DNA from: an uncultured virus (IMG/VR IMGVR_UViG_3300008339_000033)
Lineage: Duplodnaviria > Heunggongvirae > Uroviricota > Caudoviricetes
Length of the DNA: 20,000 nt
IMG/VR virus record: IMGVR_UViG_3300008339_000033
Strand: one strand, 5' to 3'
Positions 1,387 through 7,161 of this stretch are shown here, piece after piece; positions within the stretch are counted from its first letter, which is position 1, and every line of letters starts with the position of its first letter. The notes below the pieces were generated by a model. That model saw only the letters and a program-made list of their open reading frames with translations, was not told where the DNA came from and searched no databases. Both the position numbers and the translations under genes were made by a program.

Positions 1387-1410
1387 GTTTTTGTGGTTTT
1401 AATTATGACG

Positions 1411-1442
1411 TAAAGATACGAATGGCCTCTTGCGAGGCCAAA
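1411..1442 (-). promoter_or_regulatory. Bacteroidota-type primary-sigma promoter (TTTG-N20-TATCTTTA)
   Basis: Minus strand reads TTTG gcctcgcaagaggccattcg TATCTTTA; matches the -33 TTTG / -7 TAnnTTTG consensus except at the last base. Confidence 0.75.
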
Positions 1443-1473
1443 CGTTTATATTACTTTAATATGACTTTTTTTC

Positions 1474-1713
1474 TTAAGCAACTGTTTCAGATACTTTTTT
1501 ACGGCGAAAAGACATATAATACATAACATCTGCAACTTCATCAGTAATCCTACGACGACCTGCAATCATGTTTGAAATATGAGACGTTGAATACCCAGTA
1601 CGTTCTGAAATGGTATTAATGTCTCCTTGACGAGTACGAGCTTTGTAAAATTGCAAAATTGCTGTACGGTTCATTCTGCGCTTGAGCGACTTTCTACGAT
1701 TTGTGTTTCTCAT
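1474..1713 (-). CDS. Basic helix-turn-helix DNA-binding protein (XRE/Cro-like)
   Basis: INTISERTGYSTSHISNMIAGRRRIT fits the HTH pattern; very Arg/Lys-rich. Confidence 0.7.
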   Translation of the reverse strand: MRNTNRRKSLKRRMNRTAILQFYKARTRQGDINTISERTGYSTSHISNMIAGRRRITDEVADVMYYMSFRRKKVSETVA

Positions 1714-1735
1714 AACATTTATTTTTTAATTTATA

Positions 1736-1767
1736 TAAAGATACGAATGATTTTTTTATAAACCAAC
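1736..1767 (-). promoter_or_regulatory. Bacteroidota-type promoter (GTTG-N20-TATCTTTA)
   Basis: Shares the exact 14-mer CATTCGTATCTTTA with the element at 1411-1424; same spacing to a (G/T)TTG box. Confidence 0.7.
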
Positions 1768-1768
1768 C

Positions 1769-3097
1769 TTAATTTAAAAGACTTTCTGCTACATAGATTC
1801 CTTGCGCACCTGATACTGTAATACCACGAGCACTTAAAGCATCACCTACAAAATGTACATTTGGATATTCAGTTAGTGCTAGATTTGTATAATCAACTAA
1901 TGGTTCAGGAGATAAATATTTTACCTCAGGTATATACATTCCCCAATCATCACCAAATTGAAATACCTCGTTCATTTGGTCAATAAAGTTAAGAATATAA
2001 TCTGCGTATTCACTAAATGCGTCTGTAAACCATGATAATTCAGCAATTTGATAACTATCAACAATATTACTTTCAGATGTTAATGATGGTTTACGTGTTA
2101 AATTAGGTGAATAGTATAAACCGCTTTTTTTAGTTACTGGTAGATCCATTTGACATTTTTTAACTACATCTCTACACCATTCAAATGGATTTTCAATACC
2201 TTTGATTTCCATCAGAATACCAAAATTGGTCATATCGTTTCTAAATTCTTCACCTTTTTTAGCATGACCGTTGTAACTAATATCTCCATATGTTTCCTCT
2301 ACTGCCACATAAGCTGCATTATTGTTAGTGCAGAATGAGCGTAATGATATATTATCAAACTTTTGATATAGTTTAAAATCATAACTAACATCAATTAATT
2401 TTTGAAAATATTTTTGTGGTGCTTCAAAACGTACACCTATTTGTACCGATTTTGGTTCAGTTGGTAGTTTATAATCGTCTGCTAGTTGTTTACCAAAGTC
2501 AATACCTGATTTACCTACCGCAAAGATTAGTTCATCATAAGTAAGACTTTTTACTTTACCCAATTTTATAGGAATATTTGAGTATCCTAAAGTATTTTTA
2601 TTAAAATTAATACTAATAACTTCTGTTTCCCAACTAAATTTAACACCTTTATCAACTAAATAGTCATACCAACGTTTTCCTATTTCGTGTAGATAATCTG
2701 TACCTATATGATATACGGGAAATAAACGGAGACCGAAGTGAGGTTTGATGAAGTCGGGTTCTGCTTGGGGGTTAGAATACATAATTTTAGAGGGATCAGG
2801 ATGAAAACGCTTCCACATTTCAATAGCCTGATCCATTAATTCATATGCTTTGTCTTCACCACAATATTTACTTAATTGGCCACCAATTGCAGTATGATAT
2901 GTTAATTTGCCATCAGAGAATCCTCCAGCTCCTGCGAAACCTGTCATAACTTCCTCAGGTTTACGAGTATAAGGATCTTTACCTTTATCAATTATTGTAA
3001 TAAGTTCACCTGGGTAGTTATTATCTACTAATTTTAGGGCAGCACTAATTCCAGCTACTCCACTTCCTACAATTATAATTTTATTTGTATTTTTCAT
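1769..3097 (-). CDS. NAD(P)/FAD-dependent oxidoreductase (COG2509-like uncharacterised FAD dehydrogenase)
   Basis: Rossmann motif IIIVGSGVAG, GFAGAGGFSDGKL, IGVRFE, RSFCTN, NGHA and C-terminal HFVGDALSARGITVSGAQG. Start moved from 3124 to ATG 3097, which lies 1 nt after the upstream stop. Confidence 0.88.
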   Translation of the reverse strand: MKNTNKIIIVGSGVAGISAALKLVDNNYPGELITIIDKGKDPYTRKPEEVMTGFAGAGGFSDGKLTYHTAIGGQLSKYCGEDKAYELMDQAIEMWKRFHPDPSKIMYSNPQAEPDFIKPHFGLRLFPVYHIGTDYLHEIGKRWYDYLVDKGVKFSWETEVISINFNKNTLGYSNIPIKLGKVKSLTYDELIFAVGKSGIDFGKQLADDYKLPTEPKSVQIGVRFEAPQKYFQKLIDVSYDFKLYQKFDNISLRSFCTNNNAAYVAVEETYGDISYNGHAKKGEEFRNDMTNFGILMEIKGIENPFEWCRDVVKKCQMDLPVTKKSGLYYSPNLTRKPSLTSESNIVDSYQIAELSWFTDAFSEYADYILNFIDQMNEVFQFGDDWGMYIPEVKYLSPEPLVDYTNLALTEYPNVHFVGDALSARGITVSGAQGIYVAESLLN

Positions 3098-3098
3098 A

Positions 3099-3716
3099 TT
3101 ATTTATATTTCCATTTAAATCCAAAGGCAGTTTTTTGTCTTCCTAATATACAATCCTTTATTTGAGACATCAAGTTACTTGTTTTGCCTGTTTGTTCTTT
3201 TATCCATAAAGCTGCTTGACCTTTACTTTCCCATTCTTTAATAATATTACCATTTAAATCACATTGTAAAACAGGTTTAGCTTGTTTACGTTTAGCTATA
3301 CCCATATTTTTTGTATGTTCTTCTGTAAAGGGTTTTGGTTTTCCTTTATTACTTTTACTTATTTTAGTTTTAACTTCATCTGTATAATACTGAGAGTGGT
3401 TTCTTTCTTTTAATGTTTTACTTATTTTTTCCCCAGAACCTGGTCTTGGTTTTCTCATTTTTTGTTTTTGTTCTTCAGTATAGCTTGAAGGACCACCCCC
3501 ACCATTATTTTTATTTTCTAATTTGAATCCCCAACATTTAAACTGCTCTATCCAATAACTTTCCCAAAATTTCCAATCTTCAACTTCATCAATTATTTCT
3601 AATTTAATATTAGTTCCATATGTATTATAATGTTTGTGTTTACGTCTGATTGGATTTTTAGCCTTTCCAACATAAAATGGAACACCATCTCTTTCTAATA
3701 TATAAATTTTAGTCAT
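3099..3716 (-). mobile_element. Free-standing GIY-YIG-type homing endonuclease gene with NUMOD3 and NUMOD1-like DNA-binding modules
   Basis: KIYIL...FYVGKA..R...H, later E and LENKN (GIY-YIG catalytic pattern); three (Y/F)T(E/D)ExxxK(M/I) NUMOD3-like units; C-terminal KPVLQCDLNGNIIKEWES...TAFGFKWKY (NUMOD1/IENR1-like). Confidence 0.85.
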
Positions 3717-3725
3717 ATTATTTTA

Positions 3726-3735
3726 TTATACATAT
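3726..3735 (-). promoter_or_regulatory. Putative late-promoter motif ATATGTATAA
   Basis: Variant of the recurring 10-mer, 9 nt upstream of the endonuclease ATG. Confidence 0.55.
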
Positions 3736-3760
3736 TCTAAAATTCCGTCAGACCATCCCC

Positions 3761-3792
3761 CTAATATACGATTTTTTATTTAATATTCCAAA
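3761..3792 (-). promoter_or_regulatory. Bacteroidota-type promoter (TTTG-N20-TATATTAG)
   Basis: TTTG gaatattaaataaaaaatcg TATATTAG; same spacing and the same TCG before the -7 box as the other three copies. Confidence 0.65.
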
Positions 3793-3794
3793 TT

Positions 3795-3822
3795 AAAAGT
3801 GGCACCCTTTTAGGGGTGCCAC
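3795..3822 (-). terminator. Rho-independent terminator downstream of the 914-aa gene
   Basis: 9-bp stem GTGGCACCC/GGGTGCCAC with a 6-nt loop, followed by TTTTAATTT on the minus strand. Confidence 0.8.
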
Positions 3823-3872
3823 AGCTACCATAATTTATCTCTTGTTAGAGCGACCAGCTATGAATTGGTCTG
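3820..3872 (-). ncRNA. Candidate structured cis-acting RNA (two hairpins plus a possible pseudoknot)
   Basis: GACCA-AUUCAUAGC-UGGUC hairpin, CUCU-AACA-AGAG hairpin, and downstream UAUGG and GCUGUG segments complementary to the first loop. No family recognised. Confidence 0.35.
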
Positions 3873-3876
3873 TATG

Positions 3877-6621
3877 TTATTTTTTAAGTCCTGCAATTTT
3901 TTGCATACGCAAAAATTCTTCAGATTTATTTTCTTTTAAATTATATTTGAAATTTGTTGTACCTGTAGAAGATGTGGTTCCTGAGGGTTTATTTTGAGGT
4001 GTTGTGGATGGGTTTTCTAAATTTTTATCTTTATTATATTCAGTAAATGCATCTCTTATAGCATTTTTTAATTTATTTGAATCTTTTTTTAAATTAGGTC
4101 CTAAAAAAGGAATTATTTCTCTTAATATTATTTGAATAGCACCTTCAGGTGTTTTTATATAACCAAATAAGGTTTTTAAATATCCATCTTTTACAATACT
4201 ATTAACAACATTTTGAGTATCTTTATTATCAATTTCTTGGATTCTATTTCTTAAACCTGTAAAAACAGATTGAATTTTTATATTATCTTGTTTTAAATCT
4301 TTATCAAGAGTATTAAAAATAGCTAATACTAATTCTTTAAATTCATCTTGAGTATCAATTTTAGACATATAATTTTTTAAACTTGTCCTTTGGGATATAG
4401 TGTCACCTATTTTATTAACAGCTGGTAAAGTTTTATTTTTATCTTGAAGTTTATCAAAATAACTTTTTTTAGTTTCACCTTTTCCTAAAAATACATAATT
4501 TCCTCCAGGTTGAGGATTAAATCCTATATCTTTAAGATCATTTTTTTCTTCATCAGATAATTCATCAGTATTTAATATACTTAAAGTATTATCTGCTTCA
4601 GAAGCATACATACTACCTAATAAAGCTAATAGTTGAACTTTTTTATTTTTTACATCATCATCTGATACCCCAAATTCATTAAATATATCATCAATCAGTG
4701 CTTCATTTAAGTAAAGTAATGTTTGATTTTTTATTTCTTGAAGTTTTTGAATTTGAGCTTGTGTGTCTTTACCTGGACGAGTTGATATTGCTTTGGCTCT
4801 AGGTTTTAATGTTACTCCTAAAATTCCTGAATATTTTTTGGTTAAACTATCAGGTGATTTTCTTAGGGTTATAATTAATTTAGCTAATTTTTTAGCTTTA
4901 TCTGATGTTTGATTACCTTTATAATCACCTTTAATAATATTATTTAAAGTAGTATCACTAAGATTAATAATATTTTTTTCACCTAATTCAGAATAAATAT
5001 TAAGTTCAGGACTAGTACGAGATAATACAAATCCTATTTGACCATTTCTATTAAATTTAGAAATATTTTCTACATCCTGTTTTATTTTACTAGGTTCAGG
5101 TGGAGGTATGTCAAGAATAATAGGTTTAGTTTCTTCTTCATCAGATTTAGGTTCATCAGATTTAGGTTTTTCTGGTTTTGGTTTTTCTCTAGGAGTTAAA
5201 TCAGGAGCTAAAAATTGATAATAAAGTAATTTTATTGGATCTCCTTGTTCAGAAGTTTCAATATCACTTTTTATTTTTTGAAATGAAGATTGGGTTTCTA
5301 AATTATCTTGAGCTTTTTGTATTTTTTGATCATCAATACCATCAGTAGTATTAACTTTCTTATATTTTATATTTACATCAAAATCTTCACCATATGTTTT
5401 TTTAATGAGTTTTTCTATTTTTTCACCAGCCGCTTTAGCTACTTTTTCAGATGAATCTAAACGTTTAGCATTTAAATCTCCTCCATCACCAGCTACATTA
5501 CTATCATCTCCTTGATTATGAGATACAGAAGAACCATAATCTATTTCTAAATCAATTTTAGATAATTTTTGACCTTTATTATCTTTAAATTTATTATTTA
5601 AGTCTTCTATTGTTTTTTTAACTAATTCATCTGATGCTTTATTTACATCATCTTCAGATAAATCTCCTTCACCAGTATCATATGTTTGAGCAGTAGTCGC
5701 ATTACTATCATCATCTGAAAAATCGATACCTTGAGTATCAACATTATTATTTTCAAGATTTTTTACTACTTGATCAGAATCTACAGTAATATCAACATCA
5801 CCCCCAGAAATTGGTTTAATAACTTCATCAGCATTTTGATCAAAATCTGAATCTTGGGATAAATCTAATACTCCTTGAATATCTTTATCAGCTAAAGCTC
5901 CACTAGGACCATATTCTCCTTCTACTGCTATATCGGCTGCTAAAGCTATAGTAGGAGCTGCTACTCCTTGTAATACAGAGGCCGCAGCTAAAATAGGCAT
6001 AAAAGTTTTAAAACCTTTAAGTAATCCTGGGAATTTTTTTCTTAGAAATTTTAAAACTCCTCCTTCTTGCGAATTGTCTGTGTATTTTTTATTTCTTAAT
6101 GAAACTATAGTAGGAGGAATTGATGCATCTTCAAGAGAATACCCTGACAATACTGTGTATGCTACTCCTGGTTGGAGACCTTGTTTCTTTTTTGATTTTT
6201 CATCAGCATTGATAAGTATTCCTTCATATTCAGCATCTGGAAGAGAATCTCCATCCCATTTAAATATATCTCCTGGTTCTAATTGATTTAATTGAGATAA
6301 TTCAGTAAATGAACCTTTATCTGCTTCTGATAAAGGTTTATTAGGTGTAATAATACTTTGAAAAGCTCTTAAAAAATCTTTAGAACTTTTAAAAACTTTT
6401 AATTTATTTAATTCTTTAAAAACTTCTTTAGGAGAATAACCAGCTTGTTTTATATCATCAAGAACATTTTTTATAAATTCTTTAGATTCAGGTTGAAGTT
6501 TTTGATAATTTTGTTGAATTTTATTATCTCCAGCAAATTCTAATAATATATCATTAGATTTAAATTCAATTCCTGCTAATTGTTGCATACGCAGAAATTC
6601 ACCATTTAAAGACTTCTCCAT
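3877..6621 (-). CDS. Large hypothetical protein (914 aa); candidate virion-internal/ejection protein with a hydrophobic segment and an OmpA-C-like region
   Basis: Long ORF; EFLRMQxxAG at both termini; hydrophobic FMPILAAASVLQGVAAPTIALAA; acidic region containing YDTGEGDLS...LNAKRL; late motif upstream. Confidence 0.8.
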   Translation of the reverse strand: MEKSLNGEFLRMQQLAGIEFKSNDILLEFAGDNKIQQNYQKLQPESKEFIKNVLDDIKQAGYSPKEVFKELNKLKVFKSSKDFLRAFQSIITPNKPLSEADKGSFTELSQLNQLEPGDIFKWDGDSLPDAEYEGILINADEKSKKKQGLQPGVAYTVLSGYSLEDASIPPTIVSLRNKKYTDNSQEGGVLKFLRKKFPGLLKGFKTFMPILAAASVLQGVAAPTIALAADIAVEGEYGPSGALADKDIQGVLDLSQDSDFDQNADEVIKPISGGDVDITVDSDQVVKNLENNNVDTQGIDFSDDDSNATTAQTYDTGEGDLSEDDVNKASDELVKKTIEDLNNKFKDNKGQKLSKIDLEIDYGSSVSHNQGDDSNVAGDGGDLNAKRLDSSEKVAKAAGEKIEKLIKKTYGEDFDVNIKYKKVNTTDGIDDQKIQKAQDNLETQSSFQKIKSDIETSEQGDPIKLLYYQFLAPDLTPREKPKPEKPKSDEPKSDEEETKPIILDIPPPEPSKIKQDVENISKFNRNGQIGFVLSRTSPELNIYSELGEKNIINLSDTTLNNIIKGDYKGNQTSDKAKKLAKLIITLRKSPDSLTKKYSGILGVTLKPRAKAISTRPGKDTQAQIQKLQEIKNQTLLYLNEALIDDIFNEFGVSDDDVKNKKVQLLALLGSMYASEADNTLSILNTDELSDEEKNDLKDIGFNPQPGGNYVFLGKGETKKSYFDKLQDKNKTLPAVNKIGDTISQRTSLKNYMSKIDTQDEFKELVLAIFNTLDKDLKQDNIKIQSVFTGLRNRIQEIDNKDTQNVVNSIVKDGYLKTLFGYIKTPEGAIQIILREIIPFLGPNLKKDSNKLKNAIRDAFTEYNKDKNLENPSTTPQNKPSGTTSSTGTTNFKYNLKENKSEEFLRMQKIAGLKK
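5137..5166. repeat. 15-bp perfect tandem duplication within the CDS (PKSDE x2)
   Basis: ttcatcagatttagg occurs at 5137-5151 and 5152-5166, in a Pro/Lys/Glu linker. Confidence 0.9.
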
Positions 6622-6634
6622 TATACTATTTTAT

Positions 6635-6644
6635 TTATACATAT
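6635..6644 (-). promoter_or_regulatory. Putative late-promoter motif ATATGTATAA
   Basis: Recurring motif upstream of ATG 6621. Confidence 0.55.
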
Positions 6645-7117
6645 TAACAAATCCATAAAGGTTTTTTGTCGGGTATTTTTTTCCACCCTAAACCCTTAAC
6701 AGCTATTTTATCGTTAATATAAAAGTTTCTATATCCTTCAATTACATCTGATTTTCTAAACTCCTCAGGCATACATTGAGGTGGTGGGGTAAAACCATTA
6801 TCAGGTAAATTAGGTTTATTATATTGTAACCAAACTAATATTTTTTTAGTGGCATGTTCTTTACCATATCGTAACTCAAATTCATTACATATTTCTAAGC
6901 CATGCTGTACCAACCAATCATAATGTTGTATTGATTCACGTACCCATTTTGTTGAAGGGTGATTAACATGAGCACGTTTATATGGGGCAGATGAACCAAT
7001 TTCCCAATGTGCTGTACAACACATTTGTGCTGATTCAATTTGCATTTTACGAATATGATCGTCTGCTAGTTGTTGTGCGGCCTTAATAGGGTCAGCATCA
7101 ATATAAAATATGTTCAT
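6644..7117 (-). CDS. Pyrimidine-dimer DNA glycosylase / endonuclease V family protein
   Basis: MNIFY.D.DP..AA....D.H..KM..ESAQM, YK.AH.NHPS..W.R.S, WL..HG...C.E...RYGK.H. Start set at ATG 7117 (MNIFY), downstream of a promoter element. Confidence 0.85.
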   Translation of the reverse strand: MNIFYIDADPIKAAQQLADDHIRKMQIESAQMCCTAHWEIGSSAPYKRAHVNHPSTKWVRESIQHYDWLVQHGLEICNEFELRYGKEHATKKILVWLQYNKPNLPDNGFTPPPQCMPEEFRKSDVIEGYRNFYINDKIAVKGLGWKKIPDKKPLWIC

Positions 7118-7129
7118 ATGTTTTTTTGG

Positions 7130-7161
7130 TAAATATACGAACAAATTTTTTGAATCCCAAA
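7130..7161 (-). promoter_or_regulatory. Bacteroidota-type promoter (TTTG-N20-TATATTTA)
   Basis: TTTG ggattcaaaaaatttgttcg TATATTTA immediately upstream of the glycosylase gene. Confidence 0.75.

What the first reader, a model, noticed from the sequence alone, without database searches (positions are those of the whole stretch)
3743..3764. Copy of a likely homing target (GGWSDG codons) in the endonuclease's own promoter region
Seen: the non-coding DNA between the host-type promoter and the late motif upstream of the GIY-YIG gene reads GGG GGA TGG TCT GAC GGA A (G-G-W-S-D-G). The adjacent oxidoreductase gene has GGA GGA TTC TCT GAT GGC A (G-G-F-S-D-G-K) at 2926-2908. They match at 14 of 19 bases, differing only at third codon positions and the W/F codon. 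Established: I-TevI represses its own gene by binding an operator that mimics its homing site and overlaps its late promoter, and free-standing homing endonucleases usually cut a neighbouring conserved gene in rival phages. Inference: the nuclease targets the GGWSDG allele of the oxidoreductase, the resident GGFSDG allele is immune, and this copy is an autoregulatory operator or the scar of an earlier insertion site.
Basis: partly seen in the sequence, partly recalled or inferred. Interest (0 to 1): 0.8.

Follow-up and report, generated by a model that had tools for sequence, protein, structure and literature searches.

The report
Homing endonuclease carries target-site copy
A selfish nuclease gene in an uncultured phage keeps, just ahead of its own start, a short non-coding copy of the DNA site it most likely cuts in the neighbouring gene of rival phages, probably to bind it and throttle its own expression.

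Summary
GGGGGATGGTCTGACGGAA (3761-3743, minus strand) matches the oxidoreductase (OXR) site at 2926-2908 at 14 of 19 bases. In this window alone that match is not significant (24 of 300 shuffles). Related phage contigs make it significant.

- **Element and nuclease domain:** all 47 distinct endonuclease ORFs sharing this C-terminal DNA-binding domain carry the element about 25 nt before their ATG. None of 44 with another C-terminal domain does.
- **Where the consensus occurs:** in 1.28 Mb of loci it is found only upstream of these endonucleases (87) and at the OXR site (24).
- **Exact-core alleles:** OXR alleles with the core TGG TCN GAY GG occur in 13 of 41 endonuclease-less genes, against 2 of 52 endonuclease-bearing records.
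- **Conversion tracts:** endonuclease-linked tracts in OXR end at this site.
- **Codon-like variation:** the element varies only at the target's wobble positions.

Best reading: a copy of the homing target, bound by the endonuclease as an I-TevI-like operator, derived from an OXR fragment. Binding, cleavage and repression are untested. A phylogeny-controlled test was underpowered. One lineage is an exception.

The parts
3743..3761 (-). Target-site copy (element) GGGGGATGGTCTGACGGAA. Across relatives the consensus is GG N K G W TGG N C N GAY GG R A, usually preceded by TAG.
2908..2926 (-). Resident OXR site GGAGGATTCTCTGATGGCA (G-G-F-S-D-G-K), matching the element at 14 of 19. It differs at two positions that never vary in the element (TGG to TTC). 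This is the likely immune allele of the homing target.
3099..3716 (-). Free-standing homing endonuclease gene (205 aa). It has an N-terminal GIY-YIG fold and a C-terminal NUMOD/I-HmuI-like DNA-binding domain (about residues 96-205).
1769..3097 (-). FAD-dependent oxidoreductase gene (442 aa) with GxGxxG at residues 11-16. It is the presumed host gene of the homing target.
3725..3735 (-). ATATGTATAAT, a gene-start-associated motif and possible promoter, at fixed spacing from the element. The similarity to OXR (ACATAT) runs into its first bases.
3763..3791 (-). Sigma-70-like promoter TTGGAA-17-TATATT. It is homologous to the region upstream of OXR in endonuclease-less relatives. The element starts 2 nt after its -10.
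3799..3822 (-). Intrinsic terminator of the upstream 914-aa gene. It is the left flank of the endonuclease cassette in this context.

Best explanation
The element is a conserved, untranslated copy of the cleavable allele of the endonuclease's homing target, which lies about 170-190 nt into the adjacent OXR gene. In naive phages the site reads GGN GGN TGG TCN GAY GGN A. The endonuclease most likely cuts there, and repair copies the endonuclease gene together with the first roughly 190 nt of the donor's OXR. The donor's OXR carries an uncleavable spelling: TTC TCN in this window, TGG AGY in others. The upstream copy sits at the 5' edge of the mobile cassette, right after the -10 of the old OXR promoter and abutting the gene-start motif. 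I infer that the endonuclease's own C-terminal DNA-binding domain binds it and represses its own gene, and probably read-through into OXR, as I-TevI does at its operator. The copy most likely began as a piece of an OXR gene.

Shown here: conservation, specificity, co-occurrence with the DNA-binding domain, allele distribution, and conversion tracts. Inferred: binding, absence of cleavage at the copy, and repression.
For: 1. Every intact orthologue directly upstream of OXR has the core TGGNCNGAYGG within 70 nt of its ATG (36 of 36 distinct rows). A pattern scan of IMG/VR gave 38 matches in 33 distinct contexts, all followed by the endonuclease.
2. The element tracks the DNA-binding domain, not the nuclease domain. 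It is present in 47 of 47 distinct ORFs whose C-domain is at least 49% identical, 2 of which have a foreign N-domain. It is present in 0 of 44 with another or no such C-domain, 13 of which have an N-domain at least 50% identical.
3. The element consensus hits only the OXR site elsewhere (24 hits, 0 other, in 1.28 Mb).
4. Exact-core OXR alleles occur in 0 of 38 distinct endonuclease-bearing rows against 13 of 41 endonuclease-less rows. Adding 14 further records gives 2 of 52. Fisher p = 4e-4, not corrected for phylogeny.
5. In sister pairs the endonuclease-linked divergent tract runs from the OXR start to the site and stops there (L054 versus L029/L035; L096 and L078 versus L025). L043 has a crossover about 15 nt before the site. 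L069 differs from its near-identical relatives by a 3-nt TCA-to-AGT patch at the site.
6. Non-wobble positions of the element have a mean pairwise identity of 0.918. Wobble-equivalent positions have 0.596, against 0.608 for codon third positions of the endonuclease gene. No consistent ORF covers the element.
7. Precedent: the I-TevI operator matches its homing site at 15 of 20, overlaps its promoter, is bound as tightly as the homing site and is cut about 100-fold less (PMC2988022, passages read).
Against: - No binding, cleavage or expression data exist.
- In the window alone the match is within chance.
- With relatedness controlled, 11 independent pairs differ in endonuclease presence. The exact-core allele goes the predicted way in 1-3 of them, the other way in 0, and does not differ in 8-10. 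The sign test gives p 0.25-1.
- G001 and G011 have an intact endonuclease (221-aa ORF) and an exact-core allele TGGTCAGACGG in their own OXR.
- TCN/AGY switching at the site's Ser is the highest of 14 conserved Ser columns, but only just (22 against 20).
- Crossovers might cluster at the site merely because it is the most conserved stretch.
- Promoter function of ATATGTATAAT is not shown. In some contexts (L003, L004, L077) no promoter precedes the element, and an upstream gene ends inside it.
Confidence: 0.5

Rival explanations
1. Recombination relic or homology arm without a regulatory role. The element is what is left of an OXR gene into which the cassette once inserted. Alternatively, it still serves as a short left-hand homology for the broken OXR end. 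It would persist because it moves with the cassette, not because the protein binds it to regulate transcription.
For: - G001 and G011 keep a 39-codon OXR 5' fragment, ending in a stop, directly upstream of the element and collinear with it. The fragment is 83% identical to their own OXR 5' end.
- Remnants of the old OXR start codon abut the element at different points in different lineages: ATGG|, ATGAA|, ATGGATAAAA|, ATGGATAAAAAAATAGTTG|.
- The cassette's left edge lies 3-11 nt before the element in sister pairs.
- The preceding TAG fits OXR's TTA GGT if 6 nt are deleted.
Against: - A passive relic should have decayed. The flank upstream is unrelated between contexts and the spacer is at 0.558 identity, yet the element's non-wobble positions are at 0.918 across endonucleases down to about 50% identity.
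- It is retained when the cassette sits downstream of a distant OXR (L100-L104, L129, L130, G005).
- It is degenerate where the DNA-binding domain has diverged (L116, L117).
- The recent acquisition in L054 shows a clean replacement with no duplicated OXR 5' end.
Confidence: 0.22
2. An ordinary promoter or activator-binding element of this gene, read by host or phage transcription proteins. Its likeness to the OXR site would be coincidental.
For: It has fixed spacing to the gene-start motif ATAT[GT]TAT. It also lies directly downstream of a sigma-70-like -10 in this window.
Against: - The motif occurs once in the 128-kb genome. Other genes with the same gene-start motif lack it.
- All 13 fixed positions match one site in the neighbouring gene and nothing else in 1.28 Mb.
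- Codon-like periodicity.
- Perfect co-occurrence with one DNA-binding domain.
Confidence: 0.05
3. An RNA-level signal in the 5' leader, such as a hairpin that hides the start codon, as in T4 intron endonuclease transcripts.
For: It would be transcribed from the upstream promoter in this window. Regulation of T4 endonucleases by hairpins is known (PMC2988022, passages).
Against: The consensus folding of 38 leaders predicts 0 pairs. The single-sequence fold has z = -0.80, with 39 of 200 shuffles folding as well. There is no Rfam match.
Confidence: 0.03

Closest known systems
[quoted passage not shown]
   Same: A GIY-YIG endonuclease with a modular C-terminal DNA-binding domain. A roughly 20-nt sequence just upstream of its ORF resembles its homing site (15 of 20 for I-TevI; 14 of 19 here against the resident allele, and all fixed positions against naive alleles). 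That sequence lies at the gene's promoter region (PMC2988022, passages read).
   Different: - This endonuclease is free-standing, with no intron. Its target is in the neighbouring gene, not at its own insertion point.
- The copy marks the 5' edge of the mobile cassette and appears to descend from a fragment of the target gene.
- Binding and repression are not shown here.
- Two literature searches found no operator described for a free-standing endonuclease. That covers the held library only.
Intronless homing by T4 Seg endonucleases (SegF, SegG, SegB) and MobE
   Same: A free-standing endonuclease gene between conserved genes, with patchy presence among relatives. The inferred cleavage is inside a neighbouring gene some 200 nt from the insertion point. 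Flanking sequence is co-converted, so the donor's allele replaces the recipient's (review passages). The SegF and SegG cleavage distances are recalled, not read.
   Different: No upstream copy of the target is described for these in the passages I read. Here the target was inferred from that copy and from natural conversion tracts, not from crosses or cleavage assays.
I-HmuI and T4 MobB DNA-binding modules (NUMOD)
   Same: The C-terminal half resembles T4 MobB (36-38% over residues 115-204, E about 3e-7). It also resembles the I-HmuI DNA-bound structure (Foldseek 1u3e_M, E 2.6e-3, probability 1.00, 71 columns).
   Different: Those enzymes have HNH nuclease domains. Here the module is joined to a GIY-YIG domain, and relatives show that the two halves are exchanged independently.

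Membership tests
GIY-YIG homing endonuclease (I-TevI/Seg type) | GIY-YIG catalytic fold and motif | tested here: met
   - KIY...FYVGK...R...E...N is present. Y5, Y15, G17 and N68 are invariant in 14 aligned relatives.
- The AF2 model (pLDDT 76, N-domain 83-90) matches the I-TevI catalytic domain 1mk0/1ln0 (probability 1.00, TM-target 0.51-0.53) and UvrC GIY-YIG.
- PHROG 314 'homing endonuclease', E 9.5e-10.
- By sequence against Pfam it is below the cut-off (16.4 versus 22.6 bits). Against PDB it is weak (E 0.2).
GIY-YIG homing endonuclease (I-TevI/Seg type) | Separate C-terminal DNA-binding domain joined by a linker | tested here: met
   - NUMOD3, NUMOD1 and I-HmuI_NUMOD-like hits in 6, 4 and 3 of 14 relatives, all below Pfam cut-offs.
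- Foldseek hit to I-HmuI and MobB similarity.
- Low-confidence linker at residues 71-127.
- The two domains recombine independently.
GIY-YIG homing endonuclease (I-TevI/Seg type) | Mobility: presence or absence at the same locus among close relatives, with clean insertion edges | tested here: met
   At least 15 changes of presence on the OXR tree. In L040 versus L043, a 640-nt insert replaces 27 nt. L054 versus L029 shows the same kind of edge.
GIY-YIG homing endonuclease (I-TevI/Seg type) | Site-specific cleavage of the endonuclease-less allele | not testable with these tools
   Only indirect evidence: conversion tracts end at the site and the allele distribution fits.
Free-standing (not intron- or intein-encoded) | No self-splicing intron around the ORF; separate ORF between genes | tested here: met
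   No Rfam family anywhere in the window at gathering score, and none in 3600-4000 at E up to 1. The ORF has its own start and stop, and OXR is intact downstream.
I-TevI-type autorepression operator | Sequence upstream of the endonuclease ORF resembling its homing site | tested here: met
   14 of 19 against the resident allele. All 13 fixed consensus positions match naive OXR alleles, with no other hit in 1.28 Mb. That the OXR site is the homing site is itself inferred.
I-TevI-type autorepression operator | Operator overlaps the promoter that drives the endonuclease gene | tested here: inconclusive
   The element starts 2 nt after a sigma-70-like -10 and ends 7 nt before ATATGTATAAT, a gene-start motif. 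That motif occurs 17 times on the coding strand against 2 on the other, and 13 of the 17 lie within 46 nt of an ORF start. No transcription start data exist. In other contexts the upstream promoter is absent.
I-TevI-type autorepression operator | Endonuclease binds the operator, cleaves it poorly, and represses transcription | not testable with these tools
   Indirect only: the element co-occurs with the DNA-binding domain in 47 of 47 against 0 of 44.
Intronless homing with co-conversion (SegF/SegG type) | Donor flanking markers replace the recipient's between the endonuclease gene and the cleavage site | tested here: met
   L054, L096 and L078 are 67-78% identical to their endonuclease-less sisters from the OXR start to the site, and 90-100% identical after it. 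L083 and L108 have the same backbone but different 5' tracts and different endonuclease variants.

The most novel reading that the evidence does not exclude
The cassette carries a portable copy of its own target as a left homology arm. After a naive OXR is cut, the broken end anneals to the element rather than to a homologous left flank. The endonuclease gene plus the donor's OXR 5' end would then be copied into the break, whatever lies upstream. This would leave a duplicated, dead OXR 5' fragment that is later deleted down to the element. G001 and G011 (old fragment retained) and the varied stumps of the old start codon next to the element would be footprints of this route. The same sequence would double as the operator.
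Probability: 0.15. Interest if true: 0.8.

Novelty: new variant of a known kind. Interest (0 to 1): 0.62.

Why it matters
Self-repression through a copy of the homing site is established for one intron-encoded enzyme, I-TevI. Here the same arrangement appears in a free-standing endonuclease of uncultured phages, conserved in about 50 natural variants. Natural domain swaps tie the DNA element to the DNA-binding half of the protein.

It also shows a method. An endonuclease's target, its immune alleles and its approximate break point can be read from metagenomic contigs alone, by pairing the upstream copy with conversion tracts. The wobble-patterned variation of a non-coding site gives a natural map of which target bases the enzyme probably reads. 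That is useful for anyone wishing to characterise or re-use this DNA-binding module.

Tried and rejected
- **Nucleotide search of GenBank phages:** the search with 1400-4400 found nothing. The relatives come from IMG/VR only.
- **Sequence searches of PDB:** single protein and profile gave only weak UvrC hits. The fold search was needed.
- **RNA structure:** no consensus pairs and z = -0.80. No Rfam match and no tRNA.
- **Independent-pairs test of endonuclease presence against the exact-core allele:** the direction is as predicted, but only 1-3 of 11 pairs are informative, so it is not significant.
- **Ser-codon class switching as a sign of selection at the site:** highest of 14 columns but not an outlier.
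- **A second endonuclease family at the same place:** I searched for a matching 'copy' upstream of it, using the motif TGCGACTCC. No convincing counterpart was found in neighbouring genes.
- **Simple -35/-10 reading of the element itself:** I considered this by eye and dropped it. The spacing to TATAAT is 15 or 20 nt and the relevant base varies C/T.
- **Translation of the element as a small ORF:** rejected. There is no start codon in frame in the window, and the upstream context and frame differ between loci.
- **Complex prediction, sequencing-run and metagenome scans:** not used.
- **Rows dropped:** five OXR rows (L037, L044, L045, L047, L073) were dropped from the codon alignment because my script found no start or GxGxxG. 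By eye they are 4 W alleles (2 AGT, 2 TCT/AGT mixed) and 1 F allele, all without an endonuclease hit upstream.

Full report
**What is in the window.** All genes lie on the minus strand.
- A 914-aa gene of unknown family ends at 3877. It is followed by a small hairpin and an intrinsic terminator at 3822-3799.
- Next comes a sigma-70-like promoter: TTGGAA at 3791-3786, a 17-nt spacer, and TATATT at 3768-3763.
- The element GGGGGATGGTCTGACGGAA lies at 3761-3743.
- The motif ATATGTATAAT lies at 3735-3725.
- A 205-aa ORF runs from 3716 to 3099.
- One base after its stop codon, a 442-aa FAD-dependent oxidoreductase (OXR) starts at 3097. It hits Pfam Pyr_redox_2 at E 9e-8 and PHROG 12409 'dehydrogenase'.
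- OXR reads GGAGGATTCTCTGATGGCA at 2926-2908, matching the element at 14 of 19 bases. This is the only place in the window with 13 or more of 19 matches.
- The window is the last 20 kb of a 128,411-base IMG/VR virus record, and the element is unique in that record.

**Is the match more than chance?** Not on the window alone. Shuffling the 160-nt intergenic region reaches the same composition-weighted score in 24 of 300 trials. A different, AT-rich pair has a higher raw identity of 16 of 19. The case rests on relatives.

**The endonuclease.**
- Sequence libraries give sub-threshold GIY-YIG and NUMOD hits and PHROG 314 'homing endonuclease' at E 9.5e-10.
- The C-terminal half resembles T4 MobB.
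- An AlphaFold model built on 14 relatives has a mean pLDDT of 76.
- By Foldseek the model matches the I-TevI catalytic domain and UvrC GIY-YIG in the N-terminal part. It also matches the DNA-bound I-HmuI structure.
- No intron or other Rfam family is present.
- I therefore read it as a free-standing GIY-YIG endonuclease with a NUMOD-type DNA-binding domain.

**Relatives with and without the endonuclease.**
- The OXR protein found 415 related stretches in IMG/VR, of which the best 80 were kept (69-100% identity).
- The endonuclease found 137, of which 80 were kept.
- GenBank phages hold nothing close.
- On a tree of the OXR 3' part, endonuclease presence changes at least 15 times.
- Sister pairs show clean edges. 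In L040 a 640-nt insert replaces 27 nt of L043. In L054 the insert begins 3 nt before the element.
- The element is therefore the first thing in the mobile cassette.
- In endonuclease-less genomes the region upstream of OXR carries the same TTGG...TATATT promoter-like sequence as the window, and no element.

**Conservation and specificity of the element.**
- All 36 distinct intact orthologues upstream of OXR have the core TGGNCNGAYGG within 70 nt of their ATG.
- A fixed-spacing pattern found 38 IMG/VR matches in 33 distinct contexts, each followed by the endonuclease.
- The sequence upstream of the element is unrelated between contexts. It can be a terminator, or the 3' end of a denV-like gene that may even stop inside the element.
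- The cassette with its element also occurs downstream of a distant OXR (L100-L104, L129, L130, G005).
- A consensus taken from the elements alone occurs 87 times upstream of the endonuclease, 24 times at the OXR site and nowhere else in 1.28 Mb. It occurs 0 times in 200 genome shuffles.

**The element goes with the DNA-binding domain.** Relatives include natural domain swaps.
- Among distinct endonuclease-like ORFs with enough upstream sequence, the element is present in 47 of 47 whose C-terminal domain is at least 49% identical to the window's. Two of these have an unrelated N-terminal nuclease domain.
- It is present in 0 of 44 others. Thirteen of those have an N-terminal domain that is at least 50% identical.
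- A second family with the same nuclease domain but a different, shorter C-terminus sits at the same place without the element (L057, L075, L128, L129).
- L116 and L117, with diverged C-domains, have only degenerate traces of the element.
- The C-domain lies further from the element than the N-domain does. Linkage therefore does not explain the pattern.

**The OXR site as the target.** Among 90 distinct OXR sequences the site has three spellings:
- TGG TCN GAY GG, the exact core of the element;
- TGG AGY GAY GG;
- TTY TCN GAY GG.

| Group | Records with the exact core | Source |
|---|---|---|
| Distinct endonuclease-bearing rows | 0 of 38 | |
| Endonuclease-less rows | 13 of 41 | |
| Further endonuclease-bearing records | 2 of 14 | |

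- The two exceptions are G001 and G011, which are one lineage.
- Fisher's test on 2 of 52 against 13 of 41 gives p = 4e-4, but related sequences are not independent.
- The independent-pairs test finds 11 pairs. The exact core goes the predicted way in 1-3, never the other way, and does not differ in the rest. That is not significant.

Mosaic structure gives stronger evidence.
- L054 (endonuclease-bearing) is 67-78% identical to its sisters L029 and L035 from the OXR start up to and including the Ser codon of the site. It is 90-100% identical afterwards.
- L096 and L078 behave the same way against L025.
- L043 (endonuclease-less) switches from L029-like to L040-like about 15 nt before the site.
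- L069 is near-identical to L029 apart from TCA to AGT at the site.
- L083 and L108 share a backbone but carry different endonuclease variants and different 5' tracts.

This is the pattern expected of a break at or just 5' of the site (about window 2941-2912), repaired from an endonuclease-bearing donor. A caveat applies: the site is also the most conserved stretch, which by itself could attract crossovers.

**Codon-like variation in a non-coding element.**
- Across 38 aligned leaders the five wobble-equivalent positions have a mean pairwise identity of 0.596. This is like the third codon positions of the endonuclease gene (0.608).
- The other 14 positions are at 0.918, above that gene's first and second positions (0.839).
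- By my own calculation from the values, all five wobble positions are among the seven most variable of the 19. That would occur by chance in about 0.2% of choices, or about 0.5% allowing for three frames.
- The Trp third base never varies.
- No consistent ORF covers the element.
- Two explanations fit. Either the protein reads only the bases that its coding target cannot change, or the element is now and then re-copied from OXR genes.

**Origin.**
- In G001 and G011, a 39-codon OXR 5' fragment ending in a stop lies directly upstream of the element and collinear with it. It is 83% identical to that genome's own OXR 5' end.
- In other lineages, stumps of the old OXR start codon abut the element at different points.
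- The usual TAG before the element fits OXR's TTA GGT if 6 nt are deleted.
- The element thus most likely began as a piece of OXR.
- Whether that reflects one old insertion or repeated recombination between the element and the site is open.

**Other readings tested.**
- RNA structure is not supported.
- A generic promoter element is unlikely given uniqueness, specificity and periodicity.
- ATAT[GT]TAT[AT][AG]T is a gene-start motif of this genome. It occurs 17 times on the coding strand against 2 on the other. Thirteen of the 17 lie within 46 nt of an ORF start. Nothing shows that it is 'late'.

**Comparison with known systems.**
- The review PMC2988022 (passages read) describes the I-TevI operator. 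It matches the homing site at 15 of 20, overlaps the late promoter, is bound as tightly as the homing site and is cut about 100-fold less because it lacks a cleavage motif at the right distance.
[quoted passage not shown] It also describes co-conversion and marker exclusion by free-standing Seg and Mob enzymes.
- Two full-text searches found no description of such an operator for a free-standing endonuclease. That covers the held library only.
- PMC13096335 (passages read) shows that SegB breaks can produce tandem amplification through microhomology. This makes a break-induced duplication of the OXR 5' end plausible, but does not show it.

**Verdict.** The refinement is that the target is defined by nucleotides (TGG TCN), not by W versus F. 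My estimates:
- that the OXR site is this enzyme's homing target: about 0.8;
- that the protein binds the upstream copy: about 0.7;
- that the copy's maintained role is self-repression: about 0.5.

It is a new variant of a known kind.

Noticed in passing
window 3799-3876 (minus strand); same place in L009, L029, L040, L043, L054: A conserved pair of hairpins follows the upstream gene: ACAGACCAATTCATAGCTGGTC, then the terminator GTGGCACCCCTAAAAGGGTGCCAC. The first hairpin motif occurs once in the 128-kb genome. It is conserved in relatives with and without the endonuclease. There is no Rfam match.
   Followed up: partly
L057 4420-, L075 1020-, L128 224-, L129 665-1138: A second endonuclease family (155-163 aa) occupies the same spot upstream of OXR. 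Its GIY-YIG domain is 56-60% identical to the window's, but its C-terminus is different and short. It lacks the element and instead has TGCGACTCC before the gene-start motif. L128, which carries it, has the exact-core OXR allele.
   Followed up: partly
whole genome G000; window 3725-3735 as one instance: The motif ATAT[GT]TAT[AT][AG]T occurs 17 times on the coding strand and 2 times on the other. Thirteen of the 17 lie 1-46 nt before a long ORF's ATG, some only 1-2 nt before it. That is too close for a classical -10 with a leader.
   Followed up: partly
window 6644-7144 and 3877-6621; L004 3877-4350; L129 1183-1659: In many relatives a denV-like gene (Pfam Pyr_excise, PHROG 624) directly precedes OXR and overlaps its start. 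In the window the 914-aa gene of unknown family lies between them. Gene order here is therefore variable apart from the endonuclease.
   Followed up: no
L005 6383-6940, L030 6450-6977, L069 6360-6929, L099 5009-5581, L105 3977-4513, L126, L127: The gap downstream of OXR, ahead of the 79-aa gene at window 1474-1713, is a second hot spot. It holds other, distantly related endonuclease genes (29-34% identity).
   Followed up: no
OXR codon alignment columns about 450-630 (roughly window 2650-2480): This is a hypervariable, indel-rich stretch inside OXR. Even otherwise near-identical genes fall to 26-60% identity there.
   Followed up: no
L112 3001-5673: The endonuclease appears frameshifted here (hits 1-75 and 74-205 in different frames). 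OXR is split by about 720 nt between residues 165 and 177.
   Followed up: no
L010, L012, L078, L096, G001, G004: An ATG inside the element (TCTGATGG) is in frame with the endonuclease ORF with no stop between them. This gives possible N-terminally extended ORFs of 212-222 aa. The same loci have a shorter spacer to the usual ATG.
   Followed up: no
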